A stretch of DNA of 63,609 bases, counting the filler, from Craspedostauros australis (lineage: Eukaryota): assembly GCA_030167865.1 (NCBI GenBank). It is 5 parts of 5 records of this genome, joined end to end, with 100 filler letters (N's around TTAATTAATTAA, not from the genome) between each part and the next. Parts side by side here need not be neighbours in the genome. Positions count along the whole stretch, not along the records: positions 37,875 to 59,060 come from JALAGF010000847.1; 4 more parts are not named here. One strand, written 5' to 3'. The translations under genes were made by a program, and so were the position numbers. Under the pieces are notes generated by a model. That model did not search any database and was not told where the DNA came from. It saw only the letters and a list, made by a program, of their open reading frames with translations. Of this stretch, positions 37,775-48,142 are shown piece by piece; positions within the stretch are counted from its first letter, which is position 1, and each line of letters opens with the position of its first letter.

Positions 37775-37874
37775 NNNNNNNNNNNNNNNNNNNNNNNNNN
37801 NNNNNNNNNNNNNNNNNNTTAATTAATTAANNNNNNNNNNNNNNNNNNNNNNNNNNNNNNNNNNNNNNNNNNNN
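37775..37874. other. Artificial contig spacer
   Basis: N44-TTAATTAATTAA-N44. Confidence 0.98.
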
Positions 37875-38624
37875 CATGACCCACCATGATTTGGACAGCC
37901 AAATCCAGAACAGTTCGTACGAGCGATGGATGCGCCGTTCCGGATCGCGGTCCAACTGAGTCTGCCAAAAGTCGGCCGTATGCAGCTTACCAATCGGCAG
38001 ATCCTGCAACGTGAGCGGCACGATGACGGTGCGGTTGCGCGCATGCTGTCGCATCTGTTGAATCTGATCGACGAGGTCGGGCGACGTGAAGATTATCATG
38101 GCATCCTGCAGACTCAGCATGTTGGCCATCCATGTCGTGTACTTCTCGGGCTTATGTTTGGATACCACGCGAAAGTAGGCCGTGACGACGGTGTTCTCGC
38201 TCGTGATGAGATCGGGCGAGAGCTTGATGATGTCGGAGTCGTCGTAGGGCGGCGGATTCGGTCGCGGCAGCAGATTTGTGGCCGATGGGAGCTTCGCGTG
38301 CGTGTTCTGTACTTCGATCATCTTCGTCGGGCTTGACTGTTGTTGTTGCTGCTGATGCTGCTGTGTATCAATGTGTGACGAAGCCGATCCTGCAGTCCCT
38401 GTGTCACCACTGCCACCACTACTGCTCTGCTGTGATTGACCTTCCAATACAGGTGTCATCTCATTCGCTGTCATCGTTGTCGTGGGAAGCCGGACCATGG
38501 GGCTGCGCGTAAAGGCCATCGTGAAGCCAAGTAAGAATGCGATCACTTTTGCAAACAGAGGGATTACCTTGCGTCGCTTGCTCGCCATTGTGGACAGTGA
38601 GGATGGCATGGGTGGTGTTGGCAT
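37875..38624 (-). CDS. Partial (3'-truncated) type II membrane protein, HtrL/YibB-like putative glycosyltransferase
   Basis: Basic patch plus TM (KRRKVIPLFAKVIAFLLGFTMAF), a stem, then TVVTAYF...SKH...YTTWMANML...MIIFT...DPERRIH...IWLSK. Start at 38624 or 38588. Confidence 0.65.
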
Positions 38625-43604: not shown

Positions 43605-44681
43605 ATGGCTGACGAAAGCCCACCACCGGCTTCCACTGTTGCCAGCAGAAGCACAAACACGAAGGGTGGCGATGCCGATGCTGCGGCGGTGCATCTCGTC
43701 ATCCAACGATTCCGCGGTTGTAGCTTGTTGGTGGAGGAATCGCGAGTTGTCACGGTTGGCGAACACCCGCCATCGCCGAAGAGCGTGGAAGAGGTTCTGT
43801 TGGGTGCGTCATCGGCATCGGCATCGAAAGATGCAGACGCAAACGCACAACAGCAGCAGCACCAAGAGGAGACGTTGCGGCCCACCGGCATACTGGCCTA
43901 CGTCAGCTTCTCCAAGACGGCCAACCGCGAGACTGTGCAACAGGCTGCCAGAACATTGCTGAATTTGCCGGTGGTGACGATTGGATCCTGGGGTGATGGA
44001 TCCACCACCCAGAGTCTGCTGCAAATGGCCAAGAAATTAGAAACGACAGCCAATCCAACACGAGTACATCCGCTCCTGTTCCTGATCATCGTTCCGCAAG
44101 CCAACCTCATTTCCAAAGTCAAATCGCAGGGCAGATCGATCCAGTATCACCATCAGATTCAAAAGGATCTCGGCAAGGAGCTGTACGAGCACTTCAATGA
44201 CTGCTTGCGTTCGATGTTGCTCGAACAGCAATGCCAGTGCCGGGGCATCGCCATGACGGCCTCCTCGTTGTCATCGCAAAACAAGACCAAGTCCTCCATC
44301 CCGGATCCATCCATCCCGCCATCTCGACTGTTCGAAGATGCGGCGCAATACCAAGGACTGTACACGGCGGAACGCGATGAGAACGGATTGCCCGTGACGA
44401 ATCGCACAACGAATGAAGCGCTGACAAAGTCGGCCAAGAAGAAGCTGCGCAAGGTGCTAGAAGCGCACAACAAGCGGCATGACAAATACTTGGCTCAGAA
44501 ACCGGATGCCTCTAAAGCACCAACAGTGGCCGAGTCGTCCGTATCATCGAAAATGGAGGACAAGGAATCGATGCAGCTGGATCCCAAGTTCGTCACGCTG
44601 GTGTGCGGGACATTTGGGAAGCGGCAAGGGCTAACATTCCATTCTGACATGGGACCTTTCTGTCACGTCGTGCAGATTTGA
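43605..44681 (+). CDS. DTD2: DTD2/ATD-like aminoacyl-tRNA deacylase with an inserted CysRS C-terminal-like module, 358 aa
   Basis: LVIQR, GILAYVSF, TLLNLP, IVPQANL, GRSIQYH, GKELYEHF and GTFGKRQ...DMGPFCHVVQI parallel the animal DTD2/ATD motifs as recalled (PQATL, GRNMQYH, GTYGNRQ...TNGPFTH). First ATG in frame is 43605. Confidence 0.82.
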   Translation: MADESPPPASTVASRSTNTKGGDADAAAVHLVIQRFRGCSLLVEESRVVTVGEHPPSPKSVEEVLLGASSASASKDADANAQQQQHQEETLRPTGILAYVSFSKTANRETVQQAARTLLNLPVVTIGSWGDGSTTQSLLQMAKKLETTANPTRVHPLLFLIIVPQANLISKVKSQGRSIQYHHQIQKDLGKELYEHFNDCLRSMLLEQQCQCRGIAMTASSLSSQNKTKSSIPDPSIPPSRLFEDAAQYQGLYTAERDENGLPVTNRTTNEALTKSAKKKLRKVLEAHNKRHDKYLAQKPDASKAPTVAESSVSSKMEDKESMQLDPKFVTLVCGTFGKRQGLTFHSDMGPFCHVVQI

Positions 44682-44913: not shown

Positions 44914-46569
44914 TTACTTCTGAAACAGAACAGGACTGTTGTGGAGAAGGTAATAGAGGACATCGACGCGAACGGTCGACAGCCACGTCGACTGGTACAG
45001 CAGTTCATTGGAACGTTCGAGGACATGCGGCCACACGGACAGCGGCAGTTCCTTGCGTTCCGTGATGATGTGACGTCCCGCCGAATTCAACGCCAGGTAG
45101 TACTGGATCTCGTCCATGCCCACGAGGCCTCGCGGGAGCTTGAGATTGCAGAGGCTCGTGTTGTCCTGCAGCGCCGTCTGGAAGGCCTGCGCGCTTGCGT
45201 CGCCGATGCCGCGGTTGCTGATGAGCGAGAGCTTCTGGAGTTTGGCGAGGTTGGGCACGATGCTTTGCACGACGCCGGCGTCCGTGATGCTGTTCTTCAT
45301 CAGGTTCAGATCTCGCAACGTTGTGTCGCGCAGGCCATCGAAGAGCTCCTGCATATCCTCATCGTTGAGGTTGTTGAACGACAGATCGAGGATTTGGAGG
45401 CTGGAGAAGAGGCGCGGCGACGTCGTGTCGCATGCAAAGAGGGGTGCGATTCGAAACGGTTTCGTGCAGTACCTGTAATGTCCCGACGGATGCTGATTGG
45501 TGAGGTTGAGGGAGTGGAAGGAGCATCTTTGAAATGCCTGCATGGATAAATCGCGGCAGTAATTGCCGCTAATGTCCAAATGCCGGATCGTCGGATGATC
45601 GATAATGGCTTCCGTGATGGTCGCGATGCTCTGGTCGTTGAGCGTGCAGTATGAGATATCCAATGTTTCGATGGTGCTGTTTTGCTGCAACCCCTTCGCA
45701 AGCTGCGCGATGCTGGATAGGTTGCAGCCGTACAAGCTCAACTTCGCAAGCCGCGGTGCATCTGCATTTGTTGTACTTGTGGGTATGTTGGTGTTGGCGT
45801 CTTTCTCGGCGCTGCCGTGTTGCTTAAGTCCGCTCGCTTGCGATGTGGTGGCCAATGCTTGTCCCATGCACTCCATAGTGGCGTCATCGATGCGGCACTT
45901 CAACGTAAGTTGCTGAAGCGATGGGTGCACCGAGTTTGCAGATGCTGTTGTTGCTGTTGTGATGGATACTCTGGACATGTGGTTGAACACTGCACGTAAC
46001 GACCGCTGCTGCCATTCGTTGGGGTTGAAGGCATCGGAATCAGCATCAGCATCGTTGTTGACATCATGACTTTTGTCGCTGTTAGTGCTGTGGATGCTAC
46101 TGCTGCTGCTGTGGATGCTGCTGTTTATCTTTGCCGCAGTCGCTTGCCAGAAGGATTGCAAATGATGCGGTGACAGGATGACGCAGAGCGATTCCAATTT
46201 GTTGTGATGGTAGAGAGAGTCCATGATGCATTCCATGATCTGCGGAAGGTGCGGCCCCAAGCGTTCGATGGTGACATGCTGCCACTGATCTCTCGTTTCC
46301 ATCAGAACCTTCCTGAGTTCGTCGAGGAAGGCTGGAGGAGGGATGCTGTCGTTGCCGTTGTTGTTGCCGGTGGTGGCATCTGAACTCGCAGAAGCCACAC
46401 CCAACTCCTCCGACAAGGACGACAGCGTCAACGAGAGGGACTCCTGCAGCACGTGAAAGCCAGTGTAGTAGCCTATCTCCGCCTGCTCCTTGAGCTGCTT
46501 GGGGATATCTTTCCACGGAACATCCAGCACAAGCACCTTCGTGCGACGGTGATCCTGGTTTGGTGGCAT
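44914..46569 (-). CDS. RNI-like leucine-rich repeat protein, 551 aa
   Basis: LSLYGCNL, LDISYCTL, LDISGNY, LDLSFNNL and LNLMKNSI repeats, with C-terminal cap YYLALNSAGR...LPLSVWPHVLER...VLYYLL. Confidence 0.88.
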   Translation of the reverse strand: MPPNQDHRRTKVLVLDVPWKDIPKQLKEQAEIGYYTGFHVLQESLSLTLSSLSEELGVASASSDATTGNNNGNDSIPPPAFLDELRKVLMETRDQWQHVTIERLGPHLPQIMECIMDSLYHHNKLESLCVILSPHHLQSFWQATAAKINSSIHSSSSSIHSTNSDKSHDVNNDADADSDAFNPNEWQQRSLRAVFNHMSRVSITTATTASANSVHPSLQQLTLKCRIDDATMECMGQALATTSQASGLKQHGSAEKDANTNIPTSTTNADAPRLAKLSLYGCNLSSIAQLAKGLQQNSTIETLDISYCTLNDQSIATITEAIIDHPTIRHLDISGNYCRDLSMQAFQRCSFHSLNLTNQHPSGHYRYCTKPFRIAPLFACDTTSPRLFSSLQILDLSFNNLNDEDMQELFDGLRDTTLRDLNLMKNSITDAGVVQSIVPNLAKLQKLSLISNRGIGDASAQAFQTALQDNTSLCNLKLPRGLVGMDEIQYYLALNSAGRHIITERKELPLSVWPHVLERSNELLYQSTWLSTVRVDVLYYLLHNSPVLFQK

Positions 46570-47314
46570 GCTATGGCTATCGTTGTCGCTATCGTTGTCG
46601 TTCCTGTGACTACGGCTGTGGCTTTGCGGCAGGCAATGTCACTCTACCAGTACGTGCTATGCGATGATCTATGCTCGGCACAACCACGTCTCCCTCTTCC
46701 TTTCTGACAGTGAGGAAACAGGAACTTGCCATCACAGAAGCACAAACGCAGGAGCATCAGCACTCCACAACTTTTCCGTGTTGCTCCTCGTGTTGGATGG
46801 AGATGCGCAGTGCGGCACCGAGCGTGTTTGGAATCTTTCGTCATCGCCAGAACATCTGATTCCGTTTTTCCAGTTGTCCGCGGTTGGTCCATCGAGTCGA
46901 ACGATGTGGAAAAAGGTACTTAGTGAGGCTCGTTATTTGCAGTGTTGTTTCGCATGTGGGATCGGAGTTGACACGATTGACGGAATCGTGATACGGCCCT
47001 CCAAGAAGTCTTGTTTTGACAACTTGTGCAAGCGAACAATGCCGAAACGCGAAGAGATGATTCCACCACGCAAAAAGGAGAACAGTGGTGGGTCATCGCG
47101 GCAACACAAGGAGGGGAACAACGAGGCATCCATGTCCCCCTCCCTCCGCCGAAAGGATGCGATCCACAGTTGGAACATCAACACACAAGTCCACAGCCAT
47201 CGTCTATCATCACAATCATTCACAACAGCACATACGCACATACCCACATCCGGCATAGTGCGGAACATATTATTGTTACTAGTACAGCAAATACGACTAC
47301 AATACCATCCAACC

Positions 47315-48142
47315 ATGCCGCACTACCTCCTCGCATTGTCCGGCGTCGTGGGCATCACGAGCATCCTGGTGACGCAGTACGTGGACATCAACACCGTCAT
47401 GATGCGCTTCTTCCGAGACGTCGCCCGCAGCAAGGCCCGCAAGCGTCTCTACGGCGACAATCAGCACGCGCTGATGCCCATGCTGCTGGGTCAGGAGGAG
47501 CTCCTGGACATCCACAGCATGGACGACGCCGACGCCATCACCATGACGAGGGAGGAGCTGCAGTACTACCGCGGACAGGAAGAGGGACGGCCCATCTATC
47601 TCAGCATCGAGGGACGCATCTACGATGTCACGCAGGGATCCAAGTTCTACGGTCCCGACAAGCACTACCATCTGTTCACGGGGACGGACGCCACGAGGGC
47701 CTTCGCGACGGGATGCACCAAGCTGGAATGCGTCTCGTCGGACACAACCGGTTTGACAGAGAAGGAGCACAAGGAGATACTCAGATGGTTGGAAATGTAC
47801 GAGACGCACGACAAGTACACCTTTGTTGGATACCTCGTCGATGATCCCGTCGACGCGATATTAGACCAGATGGATGACGAGGCCCAGCAGCAGCAGCCCA
47901 ATGCTGGCGCGGCAACTGAGGATGGCATGTCCGGAGACAGCAATGAGACCGACAATCACGATGGGCAAGGAAATGAAACTGAAAACGAAGAGGCGGCAAC
48001 TCCTCCTCCAAACACACCAGACACAGAAGCTCTGAGGCAGGCGGAAATGGCAGACATGGCCGACAGCAGCGATCAGCAACAGGGACAGGAGCAGGAACAG
48101 CAGGAGCAGAAGGAAGAGGAGACTGTGCAGTCGCAAGATTAG
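47315..48142 (+). CDS. Cytochrome b5-like heme/steroid-binding (MAPR family) protein, 275 aa
   Basis: N-terminal hydrophobic anchor, PIYLSIEGRIYDVTQGSKFYGPDKHYHLFTGTDATRAF...KYTFVGYL, and an acidic tail. Confidence 0.92.
   Translation: MPHYLLALSGVVGITSILVTQYVDINTVMMRFFRDVARSKARKRLYGDNQHALMPMLLGQEELLDIHSMDDADAITMTREELQYYRGQEEGRPIYLSIEGRIYDVTQGSKFYGPDKHYHLFTGTDATRAFATGCTKLECVSSDTTGLTEKEHKEILRWLEMYETHDKYTFVGYLVDDPVDAILDQMDDEAQQQQPNAGAATEDGMSGDSNETDNHDGQGNETENEEAATPPPNTPDTEALRQAEMADMADSSDQQQGQEQEQQEQKEEETVQSQD

What the first reader, a model, noticed from the sequence alone, without database searches (positions are those of the whole stretch)
43605..44681. ATD/DTD2-like deacylase in a non-animal, with a CysRS C-terminal-like module inserted in the fold
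Seen: PQANL and C-terminal GPFCH motifs match the ATD type (PQATL, NGPFTH) rather than canonical DTD1 (SQFTL, NDGPVT). Between the last helix and the final strands lies IPPSRLFEDAAQYQGLYTAERDENGLPVTNRTTNEALTKSAKKKLRKVLEAHNKRHDKYL (about 44313-44493). From memory this resembles the eukaryotic cysteinyl-tRNA synthetase C-terminal extension (IPPSEMF...FDENGLPTHD...ELSK...KKLKKL). Established: ATD was described as largely animal-specific and edits L-Ala-tRNA(Thr); the CysRS extension aids tRNA binding. Inference: a trans-editing enzyme with a borrowed tRNA-binding appendage and possibly different tRNA specificity. I consider this the strongest novelty candidate in the window.
Basis: partly seen in the sequence, partly recalled or inferred. 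Interest (0 to 1): 0.72.

Follow-up and report, generated by a model that had tools for sequence, protein, structure and literature searches.

The report
Diatom tRNA deacylase with borrowed tRNA-binding arm
A diatom-type gene encodes a proofreading enzyme that strips wrong amino acids from tRNA, and a small lysine-rich module also found at the tail of cysteinyl-tRNA synthetase has been spliced into the middle of it, an arrangement not described before.

Summary
Window 43605-44681 (+) is one uninterrupted 358-codon ORF. Its core is a DTD-fold aminoacyl-tRNA deacylase (Pfam PF02580). By sequence it is far closer to the two solved ATD structures than to any DTD1 (family profile: 4e-18 and 1.7e-14 versus 0.28), and Foldseek ranks the ATDs first. 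The about 70-residue insert (residues 231-300) is homologous to the C-terminal tail of eukaryotic CysRS. A profile of 19 diatom inserts finds full-length CysRS tails at E about 1e-14 among 1.84 billion proteins. An HMM built only from 12 CysRS tails finds the window's insert at 1.3e-11, with 0 of 2000 shuffles matching. All 56 of 56 homologues carry the insert, including transcript-derived diatom sequences, so it is not an intron. It is predicted to be a compact unit ending in a long basic helix between flexible linkers. It is therefore ATD-like, not a strict ATD. The function is inferred, not shown: a trans-editing deacylase with a tethered tRNA-binding arm. I rate it a new variant of a known kind.

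The parts
43605..44681 (+). Complete single-exon CDS (358 aa plus TGA) of an ATD-like DTD-fold aminoacyl-tRNA deacylase
   Evidence: The ORF is uninterrupted. PF02580 gives E 2.2e-8, 35 bits against a cutoff of 25. Best PDB sequence hits are 1tc5 (9.9e-10) and 5xaq (5.4e-6). The AF2 model has mean pLDDT 83.2, and Foldseek ranks 1tc5 and 5xaq first.
43689..43760 (+). N-terminal beta strands (residues 29-52) carrying the IQRFR motif. R35 is the equivalent of DTD Arg7.
   Evidence: Strands E29-36, E38-43 and E47-52 in the model. QR is kept in 85 of 92 family members. Family member P0128 aligns its VQRV with QRV of human DTD1 and Aquifex DTD, and with LQAM of Leishmania ATD.
43761..43883 (+). Low-complexity, poorly conserved loop (residues 53-93) inserted in the core
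   Evidence: pLDDT is 51-55 for residues 71-90. The columns are variable and gapped in A1. The stretch is absent from the aligned ATD chains.
44094..44108 (+). Active-site motif 1, PQANL (ATD type is PQATL, DTD type is SQFTL)
   Evidence: Read directly from the sequence. Present in 82 of 92 homologues. Aligned to vPQAsL in 1tc5 and iPQAtL in 5xaq. Motif definitions come from PMC5802732.
44295..44504 (+). Inserted CysRS-tail-like module (residues 231-300): short helix, small beta elements, long basic helix
   Evidence: The profile of 19 diatom inserts hits CysRS C-termini at 1.2e-14 to 1.1e-13. The CysRS-tail-only HMM hits residues 225-302 at 1.3e-11, with 0 of 2000 shuffles matching. pLDDT is 89-96 inside the full model and 87.6 when folded alone.
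44427..44498 (+). Lysine-rich amphipathic helix of the module (residues 275-298, KSAKKKLRKVLEAHNKRHDKYLAQ)
   Evidence: Helix H275-298 in the model. It holds 9 K/R against 2 D/E. The conserved basic residues 275, 279, 280, 283, 290, 291 and 294 fall within a 160 degree arc of the helical wheel. K279 and K283 are invariant and K275 and K294 nearly invariant in 92 sequences. The same positions are conserved in the CysRS tails.
44505..44591 (+). Flexible low-complexity linker back to the core (residues 301-329)
   Evidence: pLDDT is below 50 at residues 304-306 and 308-317. Length and sequence vary among homologues.
44607..44633 (+). GTFGKRQGL. R340 is the equivalent of ATD Arg151.
   Evidence: Aligned to GTFGNRQGL of 1tc5 and GTYGNRQVL of 5xaq. 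The dominant family forms GSFGKRQGL and GTFGKRQGL account for 34 and 18 of 92. The role of Arg151 is described in PMC5802732.
44646..44666 (+). Active-site motif 2, DMGPFCH, with the cross-subunit Gly-Pro dipeptide (ATD type is TNGPY/FTH, DTD type is NXGPXT)
   Evidence: Read directly from the sequence. Present in 77 of 92 homologues. Aligned to e-GPFTH of 1tc5.

Best explanation
The gene encodes a cytosolic trans-editing aminoacyl-tRNA deacylase of the DTD fold, from the ATD-like branch. By homology it works as a homodimer whose active sites are built from PQANL and the cross-subunit Gly-Pro of DMGPFCH. A loop between the last long helix and the final strands is short in mouse ATD and 35 residues long in Leishmania ATD. 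Into this loop the diatom lineage has spliced a module of about 70 residues that is homologous to the C-terminal tail of eukaryotic CysRS and, more distantly, to the AsnRS N-terminal domain. The module hangs on flexible linkers and ends in a helix with a continuous basic face. Its most likely role is a tethered, largely sequence-independent tRNA-binding arm, two per dimer, that raises the enzyme's affinity for aminoacyl-tRNA and may bias which tRNAs it captures. Shown here: the architecture, both homologies, conservation across a diatom family, and the predicted fold. Inferred: dimerisation, catalysis, tRNA binding by the module, and the substrate. The family has both the DTD arginine and the ATD arginine, so the cis or trans state of its Gly-Pro, and hence its chiral selectivity, cannot be read from sequence. 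I lean about 55:45 to ATD-like relaxed selectivity, because both signature motifs and overall similarity are of ATD type.
For: PF02580 scores above its gathering cutoff. The A1 family profile against PDB gives 1tc5 at 4e-18, 5xaq at 1.7e-14 and the best DTD1 (2dbo) at 0.28. Foldseek on the AF2 model (pLDDT 83.2) ranks 1tc5 and 5xaq first (E 2.3e-9 and 3.3e-9, TM by target 0.67-0.80), ahead of the DTD1 chains (from 8.8e-6). The insert profile against 1.84e9 representatives gives 1326 hits at E<=1e-3 and 298 at E<=1e-10. These include full-length CysRS matched at the extreme C-terminus: P0147 at 759-820 of 825, P0154 at 791-848 of 852, and P0170 at 769-825 of 826. Pfam PF01406 confirms these as CysRS. 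Cluster members of P0154 and P0170 are named cysteine--tRNA ligase of Hymenolepis and Macrostomum. The reciprocal HMM built from 12 CysRS tails hits P0001 residues 225-302 at 1.3e-11, with 0 of 2000 shuffles matching. It also hits 56 of 56 homologues at E<=1e-5. PF20917 AsnRS_N is matched by 18 of 19 inserts at E<=1, best 1.7e-5. The module is confidently folded and flanked by segments with pLDDT below 50. Its basic residues are conserved on one helix face. On the CysRS tail I read only a secondary sentence in PMC12542199, which cites Liu et al. 2007 for the CysRS C-terminal extension being important in anticodon recognition. PMC8319005 and PMC12262901, citing Frugier 2000, Francin 2002 and Kaminska 2001, say that lysine-rich aaRS extensions are important for tRNA binding (passages).
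Against: Nothing here shows tRNA binding or deacylation. The window's own insert is the most divergent of the set: it gives no Pfam hit when scanned alone and nothing in the single-sequence searches. No solved structure resembles the module (best Foldseek E 2.9, best VIA Z 4.3), so there is no structural precedent for how it contacts RNA. I know the CysRS tail's function only from a secondary citation, and that function concerns anticodon recognition. This is hard to transfer to an enzyme acting on the acceptor end. A strict ATD feature, Arg7 replaced by Gln, is not met. No phylogeny including canonical ATDs of 150-195 aa was made, because the searches did not cover that length range.
Confidence: 0.7

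Rival explanations
1. The core is functionally a DTD-type chiral proofreader that clears D-aminoacyl-tRNA and Gly-tRNA(Ala). It does not edit L-Ala-tRNA(Thr) as ATD does. The retained Arg7 equivalent would lock the Gly-Pro motif in cis as in DTD. The module would still be a tRNA arm.
For: R35 in QR[YF]R is kept in 85 of 92 family members. It aligns with QRV of human DTD1 and Aquifex DTD, whereas Leishmania ATD has QA at that position. PMC5802732 states that Arg7 locks Gly-cisPro in DTD and is replaced by Gln in ATD.
Against: Both signature motifs are of ATD type and the ATD Arg151 equivalent (R340) is present. Similarity to ATD exceeds similarity to DTD1 by more than 13 orders of magnitude in E-value.
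Confidence: 0.3
2. The module is mainly a protein-interaction or localisation device and not a tRNA binder. It could act as a nuclear-localisation-like KKKLRK patch, or dock the deacylase to the ribosome, an elongation factor or a synthetase complex.
For: The basic cluster KSAKKKLRK resembles a classical basic localisation signal (sequence; the resemblance is recalled, not tested). The same module occurs in tandem arrays in proteins with no other domain (P0058, P0115, P0117), which would also suit a scaffold role.
Against: Apart from those stand-alone arrays, every listed host whose type could be identified acts on tRNA: CysRS, this deacylase family and, more distantly, AsnRS. Conservation extends well beyond the basic patch (IPPxxLF, Y..FD..G.P), which a simple localisation signal would not need.
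Confidence: 0.15
3. The insert is an artefact: an unspliced intron, a mis-joined gene model, or a lysine-rich low-complexity stretch that only mimics the CysRS tail.
For: The gene lies in a eukaryotic genome where introns are possible. Single-sequence searches with the insert found nothing.
Against: The frame stays open through the insert. The insert is conserved at the protein level in 56 of 56 homologues, including three transcript-derived sequences (P0045, P0050, P0055). Profile hits run both ways, with 0 of 2000 shuffles matching. The conserved positions include non-basic residues P239, F243, G261 and P263.
Confidence: 0.03

Closest known systems
ATD (Animalia-specific tRNA deacylase, UniProt DTD2 of animals; structures 5xaq from mouse and 1tc5 from Leishmania major)
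   Same: Same DTD-like fold. Motif 1 is P-Q-A-x-L. Motif 2 is G-P-F/Y-x-H at the C-terminus. The arginine of GxRQ (Arg151 in the mouse enzyme) is conserved. These are the best sequence and structure matches.
   Different: About twice as long: 358 aa against chains of 168 and 194 aa. It carries an insertion of about 115-130 residues that contains the CysRS-tail module, plus a low-complexity loop at residues 53-93. Motif 1 has Asn for Thr and motif 2 has Cys for Thr, with DM in place of TN. It keeps the DTD-type Arg (R35) where ATDs have Gln or Ala. It comes from a diatom-type organism, a group not listed among ATD holders in the passages read from PMC5802732 and PMC7302879.
DTD1 (canonical D-aminoacyl-tRNA deacylase, e.g. 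1jke, 2dbo, 2okv, 4nbi)
   Same: Same fold (Foldseek E 8.8e-6 to 5e-4, TM by target about 0.5-0.68). The N-terminal QR arginine is retained.
   Different: Motifs SQFTL and NXGPXT are replaced by PQANL and DMGPFCH. Sequence similarity is marginal (best E 0.28 with the family profile). DTD1 has no inserted module.
C-terminal extension of eukaryotic cytosolic CysRS
   Same: Homologous over about 65-75 residues: IPPxxLF, Y-x-x-F/W-D, G-x-P, and (S/T)KSxxKKLxK followed by K-x-H-x-x-Y/W-L.
   Different: In CysRS the module is the extreme C-terminus of a class I synthetase and follows the anticodon-binding region. Here it is internal, spliced into a surface loop of an editing enzyme and flanked by linkers on both sides.
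AsnRS N-terminal domain (Pfam PF20917) and the lysine-rich tRNA-binding extensions of class IIb eukaryotic synthetases
   Same: 18 of 19 diatom inserts match PF20917 at E<=1, best 1.7e-5. Where printed, the matched stretch begins at model positions 18-35 and ends at 66-72 of 91. The pattern L-(S/T)-K-x-A-x-K-K-L-x-K resembles the lysine-rich motif I recall from Frugier et al. 2000. That paper is not held here and I saw it only as a citation.
   Different: The printed matches score below the 27-bit gathering cutoff. The window's own insert gives only E 0.89. No solved AsnRS N-domain came up in sequence or fold searches.

Membership tests
DTD-like fold / Pfam PF02580 Tyr_Deacylase | Profile match above the curated cutoff, and the fold itself | tested here: met
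   35 bits against a cutoff of 25. Foldseek matches ATD and DTD chains at probability 1.00, with 51 matches at E<=0.001.
ATD (Kuncha et al. 2018, PMC5802732) | Closer to ATD than to DTD in sequence and structure | tested here: met
   Family profile: 4e-18 and 1.7e-14 for ATDs against 0.28 for the best DTD1. Foldseek ranks 1-4 are ATD chains. The nearest non-diatom Atlas cluster is a 189-aa Euglenozoa cluster, score 0.82, which is a lead only. No tree was built.
ATD (Kuncha et al. 2018, PMC5802732) | Motif 1 PQATL in place of SQFTL | tested here: met
   PQANL at residues 164-168, found in 82 of 92 homologues. P, Q, A and L match, and Thr is replaced by Asn.
ATD (Kuncha et al. 2018, PMC5802732) | Motif 2 TNGPY/FTH in place of NXGPXT | tested here: inconclusive
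   DMGPFCH: G-P-F-x-H matches, but TN is replaced by DM and Thr by Cys, in 77 of 92 homologues. One relative, P0128, has GPFTH.
ATD (Kuncha et al. 2018, PMC5802732) | Invariant arginine equivalent to MmATD Arg151 | tested here: met
   R340 in GTFGKRQGL aligns to GNRQ of 5xaq and 1tc5. I assign Arg151 to this arginine from the chain numbering in those alignments, which is my inference.
ATD (Kuncha et al. 2018, PMC5802732) | DTD Arg7 replaced by glutamine (Gln16 in MmATD) | tested here: not met
   QR is kept in 85 of 92 homologues. Through family member P0128 it aligns with QRV of DTD1 chains and with QA of Leishmania ATD. The feature is described.
ATD (Kuncha et al. 2018, PMC5802732) | Cross-subunit Gly-Pro in trans conformation | not testable with these tools
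A monomer prediction would not settle the question in any case.
ATD (Kuncha et al. 2018, PMC5802732) | Deacylates L-Ala-tRNA(Thr) and co-occurs with tRNA(Thr) G4-U69 genes | not testable with these tools
   The window has no tRNA gene and no whole genome is held. A biochemical assay is needed.
Eukaryotic CysRS C-terminal tail module | Significant profile similarity in both directions | tested here: met
   Insert profile to CysRS: 1.2e-14 to 1.1e-13 in 1.84e9 proteins. CysRS-tail HMM to P0001: 1.3e-11, with 0 of 2000 shuffles matching.
Eukaryotic CysRS C-terminal tail module | Located at the C-terminus of a CysRS | tested here: not met
   Here the module is internal (residues 231-300 of 358) in a deacylase that has no PF01406 domain.
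Pfam PF20917 AsnRS_N | Match above the gathering score (27 bits) | tested here: inconclusive
   P0001 gives E 0.89 and 10.4 bits. 18 of 19 family inserts match at E<=1, best 1.7e-5. The printed matches score 16.8-20.2 bits.

The most novel reading that the evidence does not exclude
The ATD lineage is not an innovation of animals and choanoflagellates. It is an old eukaryotic paralogue of DTD. Diatoms preserve a third active-site state with both the DTD arginine and the ATD arginine, and have fitted it with a CysRS-type tRNA arm that retargets it to a set of mischarged tRNAs different from L-Ala-tRNA(Thr)(G4-U69). The same module, also seen as stand-alone tandem arrays, would be a mobile eukaryotic tRNA-binding cassette that has gone uncatalogued.
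Probability: 0.3. Interest if true: 0.75.

Novelty: new variant of a known kind. Interest (0 to 1): 0.6.

Why it matters
ATD has been presented as an animal-linked proofreader that arose together with tRNA(Thr) genes carrying G4-U69 (PMC5802732, PMC7302879). A conserved ATD-like family exists in diatoms. Named members come from Nitzschia and Leptocylindrus, members are only 35-49% identical to the window's protein, and their similarity to animal and Leishmania ATDs is low. That pattern argues against recent transfer from animals and bears on when and why this paralogue arose. The family also offers a natural test of the 'migrating arginine' model of the cis-to-trans Gly-Pro switch, because it carries both arginines. 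Finally, it shows that a synthetase appendage can be reused by insertion into a surface loop of a free-standing editing factor. Among the listed hits the CysRS tail occurs in at least three kinds of protein, which makes it a candidate for a general tRNA-binding cassette.

Tried and rejected
- Pfam on 109 residues around the insert gave 0 families at E<=10.
- A word-indexed search of residues 228-300 against longer proteins gave 10 candidates, none scoring E<=10.
- phmmer of the insert against PDB gave one chance-level hit at E 1.2.
- The insert profile against PDB sequences gave two chance-level hits at E 1.3 and 2.6, with no AsnRS or CysRS chain.
- Fold searches with the insert model gave nothing clear: Foldseek best E 2.9, VIA-align over 48,161 chains best Z 4.3 and none at Z>=5. 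This shows neither a new fold nor the absence of a relative.
- The 'shorter' homologue search covered only 30-149 aa and returned 10 fragments. Together (196-627 aa), this leaves canonical ATD/DTD proteins of 150-195 aa unfetched. I therefore built no ATD/DTD tree, and the grouping with ATD rests on E-value and Foldseek ranking only.
- No whole genome is held for the window and the window has no tRNA gene, so the G4-U69 question is open.
The transcript evidence comes from homologues.
- The scan's earlier findings gave nothing by place or by sequence.
- Frugier et al. 2000 and Liu et al. 2007 are not held. What I say of them comes from citing papers or from recall.
- Cluster look-ups gave no taxon for P0128, the most ATD-like insert-bearing relative.
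- Neighbouring genes are an LRR protein and a cytochrome-b5-domain protein. They give no functional link.
- I did not send a dimer prediction, because a pass would rest on likeness to solved DTD/ATD dimers.
- A literature search for 'tRNA deacylase' plus 'diatom' returned 2 papers, both irrelevant by title and abstract start. This, and the absence of the words diatom and stramenopile from the two ATD papers, is my only basis for saying the arrangement is not in print. The supplementary species lists of PMC5802732 were not opened and could list diatoms.
Full report
**What is there**

Window 43605-44681 (+) is a single open frame of 358 codons (P0001). It starts at the first in-frame ATG and ends at TGA. 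PQANL is at residues 164-168 (nt 44094-44108). GPFCH lies within DMGPFCH at residues 348-354 (nt 44646-44666).

**The core**

Pfam gives PF02580 (D-Tyr-tRNA deacylase) at E 2.2e-8, 35 bits against a curated cutoff of 25. NCBIfam's DTD equivalog is far below its cutoff, at 14.2 against 101.5 bits.

Against all PDB sequences, the only real matches are the two solved ATD-type proteins. Leishmania major 1tc5 scores 9.9e-10 and mouse 5xaq scores 5.4e-6. The match is split into two stretches on either side of the insert.

A profile of 22 homologues sharpens this. It gives 1tc5 at 4e-18 and 5xaq at 1.7e-14, while the best canonical DTD1 (Aquifex 2dbo) reaches only 0.28.

An AlphaFold2 model built on 92 homologues has mean pLDDT 83.2 and pTM 0.69. 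Foldseek puts the four ATD chains first (E 2.3e-9 to 2.0e-8, TM by target 0.67-0.80), followed by DTD1 chains from 8.8e-6.

The ESM Atlas look-up is a lead only. It lists two diatom clusters and then a 189-residue Euglenozoa cluster.

I could not make a tree. My two length-limited searches covered 196-627 aa and 30-149 aa and so missed canonical ATD/DTD proteins. The grouping with ATD rests on ranking, not on phylogeny.

**The family**

The whole-protein search returned 56 other proteins at E 2.7e-78 to 2.1e-25 and 31-46% identity by BLASTP.

- Two named members are 'D-tyrosyl-tRNAtyr deacylase' of the pennate diatom Nitzschia inconspicua.
- One is from Leptocylindrus danicus (taxonomy).
- Three come from transcriptome collections (P0045, P0050, P0055).
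- The rest are unnamed metagenome or assembly proteins.

Nothing exceeds 50% identity to the window's protein in the alignments. The organism is therefore a diatom or a near relative without a close sequenced neighbour. This is an inference.

In the 92-sequence alignment:

- PQANL occurs in 82 of 92.
- DMGPFCH occurs in 77 of 92.
- The dominant forms GSFGKRQGL and GTFGKRQGL occur in 34 and 18 of 92.
- An N-terminal QR is kept in 85 of 92.

**The insert**

Relative to mouse ATD, residues 203-329 are extra. Within them, residues 231-300 are strongly conserved. The family consensus is DPSIPPxxLFR, Y-S-F-D, G-x-P-L-T, GEPLTKSAxKKLxK, then H-x-KRHEKYL.

Searches with the window's insert alone found nothing. 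A profile of 19 diatom inserts, run against 1.84 billion representatives, gave 1326 hits at E<=1e-3 and 298 at E<=1e-10. I saw only the best 150 of these. Most are the same deacylase family. Mixed among them, at 1.2e-14 to 1.1e-13, are proteins of 825, 852 and 826 residues matched at their last 60 residues or so.

I put 30 of the listed hits through Pfam:

- 12 carry CysRS domains (PF01406 and/or DALR_2).
- 8 carry PF02580.
- 8 have no Pfam family at all.
- 2 have only a weak match: P0150 to AsnRS_N, and P0058 a below-cutoff chance-level hit.

Cluster members of two of the long proteins are named cysteine--tRNA ligase of the flatworms Hymenolepis diminuta and Macrostomum lignano.

As a reverse test I built an HMM from the last 85 residues of the 12 CysRS proteins only. 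I searched it against everything fetched plus 2000 shuffles of P0001. It hit P0001 at residues 225-302 with E 1.3e-11 (41.5 bits), and no shuffle matched at E<=10. It also hit 56 of 56 homologues at E<=1e-5. The query included the insert, so that set is not wholly independent.

The insert is not an intron. The frame is open through it, it is conserved as protein, and transcript-derived homologues contain it.

**More distant kin of the module**

18 of 19 diatom inserts match Pfam PF20917 (AsnRS N-terminal domain) at E<=1, best 1.7e-5. The matches that were printed score below the 27-bit cutoff, and the window's own insert gives only E 0.89. I treat this as probable distant kinship, not membership.

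The core of the basic helix, L-(S/T)-K-S-A-x-K-K-L-x-K, resembles the lysine-rich tRNA-binding motif of class IIb eukaryotic synthetases. I recall that motif from Frugier et al. 2000. The paper is not held here and I saw it only as a citation for 'lysine-rich extensions important for tRNA binding'.

**Predicted anatomy**

In the full model the module has pLDDT 89-96. It consists of a short helix (239-245), a few short beta elements (253-272) and a long helix (275-298). It is bracketed by segments with pLDDT below 50 (226-230, 304-306, 308-317). Folded alone it gives the same elements at pLDDT 87.6.

The helix has 9 Lys/Arg against 2 Asp/Glu. The conserved basic positions 275, 279, 280, 283, 290, 291 and 294 lie within a 160 degree arc of the helical wheel.

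No solved structure resembles the module.

Kuncha et al. 2018 define ATD by three things besides the two motifs:

- DTD's Arg7 is replaced by Gln.
- A new invariant Arg151 appears.
- The result is a switch of the cross-subunit Gly-Pro from cis to trans, which relaxes chiral selectivity (passages read).

The diatom family has the Arg151 equivalent, R340, aligned to GNRQ of both ATD structures. It also keeps the Arg7 equivalent, R35. Family member P0128 aligns its VQRV to QRV of human DTD1 and Aquifex DTD, and to LQAM of Leishmania ATD. P0001's IQRFR occupies the same alignment columns.

This is a different mixture from the choanoflagellate 'intermediate' described in PMC7302879, which has Arg7 but lacks Arg151. 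One defining ATD feature is therefore not met. I call the protein ATD-like and do not file it as an ATD. Its chiral selectivity cannot be predicted from sequence.

**Mechanism proposed**

Shown here: a DTD-fold core with intact active-site motifs, and a conserved, confidently folded module on flexible tethers that is homologous to the CysRS tail.

Inferred from established knowledge of DTD/ATD: a homodimer with cross-subunit active sites acting on the aminoacyl-A76 end.

Inferred for the module: a tethered arm that binds the tRNA body through its basic helix face. This would raise affinity and possibly bias tRNA choice. The only functional statement I could read on the CysRS extension is a secondary one, that it is important for anticodon recognition. 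How that would translate to a deacylase is open.

Rivals are given with odds in their own section:

- a DTD-like chiral proofreader function of the core;
- a docking or localisation role for the module;
- an artefact.

**Surroundings**

The gene is flanked by a convergent leucine-rich-repeat protein gene (44914-46569, minus strand) and a cytochrome-b5-domain gene (46664-48142). Further upstream, at 37827-38624 (minus strand), is an HtrL_YibB-like ORF. None bears on function. The window contains no tRNA gene, and no genome is held. The proposed check for G4-U69 tRNA(Thr) could not be made.

**Novelty**

The two ATD papers contain neither 'diatom' nor 'stramenopile'. They list only Leishmania, Trypanosoma, Saprolegnia, Salpingoeca and Acanthamoeba outside animals, suggesting transfer from hosts. 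I did not open their supplementary species tables. A search for 'tRNA deacylase' with 'diatom' gave two unrelated papers. AARS Online's table of domains shared between synthetase families does not list a CysRS-tail/AsnRS-N module in the passages shown.

Both parts are known kinds, and their combination by internal insertion, together with the two-arginine state, appears undescribed. I rate it a new variant of a known kind, with interest 0.6.

Noticed in passing
P0058 (305 aa), P0115 (461 aa), P0117 (741 aa): Stand-alone proteins made of 3, 3 and 4 tandem copies of the CysRS-tail module. P0115 and P0117 have no Pfam family and P0058 has only a below-cutoff chance-level hit. P0058 is from the diatom Dactyliosolen fragilissimus (MMETSP0580) and is the top hit of the diatom insert profile (1.6e-28). 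They could be free tRNA-binding cofactors.
   Followed up: partly
P0128 (366 aa; a EukProt member with no taxon given): An insert-bearing relative that is more canonical: PQAGL, GPFTH, VQRVN, and PF02580 at 3e-20. It scores 6.3e-20 against Leishmania ATD. It suggests the insertion may extend beyond, or predate, the PQANL/GPFCH diatom group. Its organism could not be learned.
   Followed up: partly
window 43983-44000 (residues 127-132, GSWGDG): A G-x-W-G-D-G motif is characteristic of the family: T125, G127, W129 and D131 are invariant in 92 sequences. It has no counterpart in the aligned mouse ATD stretch. Its role is unknown.
   Followed up: no
window 44661-44663 (Cys353 in GPFCH): A cysteine replaces the threonine of the ATD motif GP(Y/F)TH in 81 of 92 family members. 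It sits next to the catalytic Gly-Pro and could make the site redox-sensitive. This is pure speculation.
   Followed up: no
window 44914-46569 (-) and 46664-48142 (+): The neighbouring genes are a 551-aa leucine-rich-repeat protein (LRR_6 at 1.5e-14) convergent with the deacylase gene, and a 492-aa protein with a cytochrome b5-like domain (2.2e-11).
   Followed up: partly
window 37827-38624 (-): A 265-aa ORF with a weak match to the bacterial HtrL_YibB family (PF09612, 1.8e-6, 28.2 bits against a cutoff of 24.1) in what looks like a eukaryotic genome.
   Followed up: no
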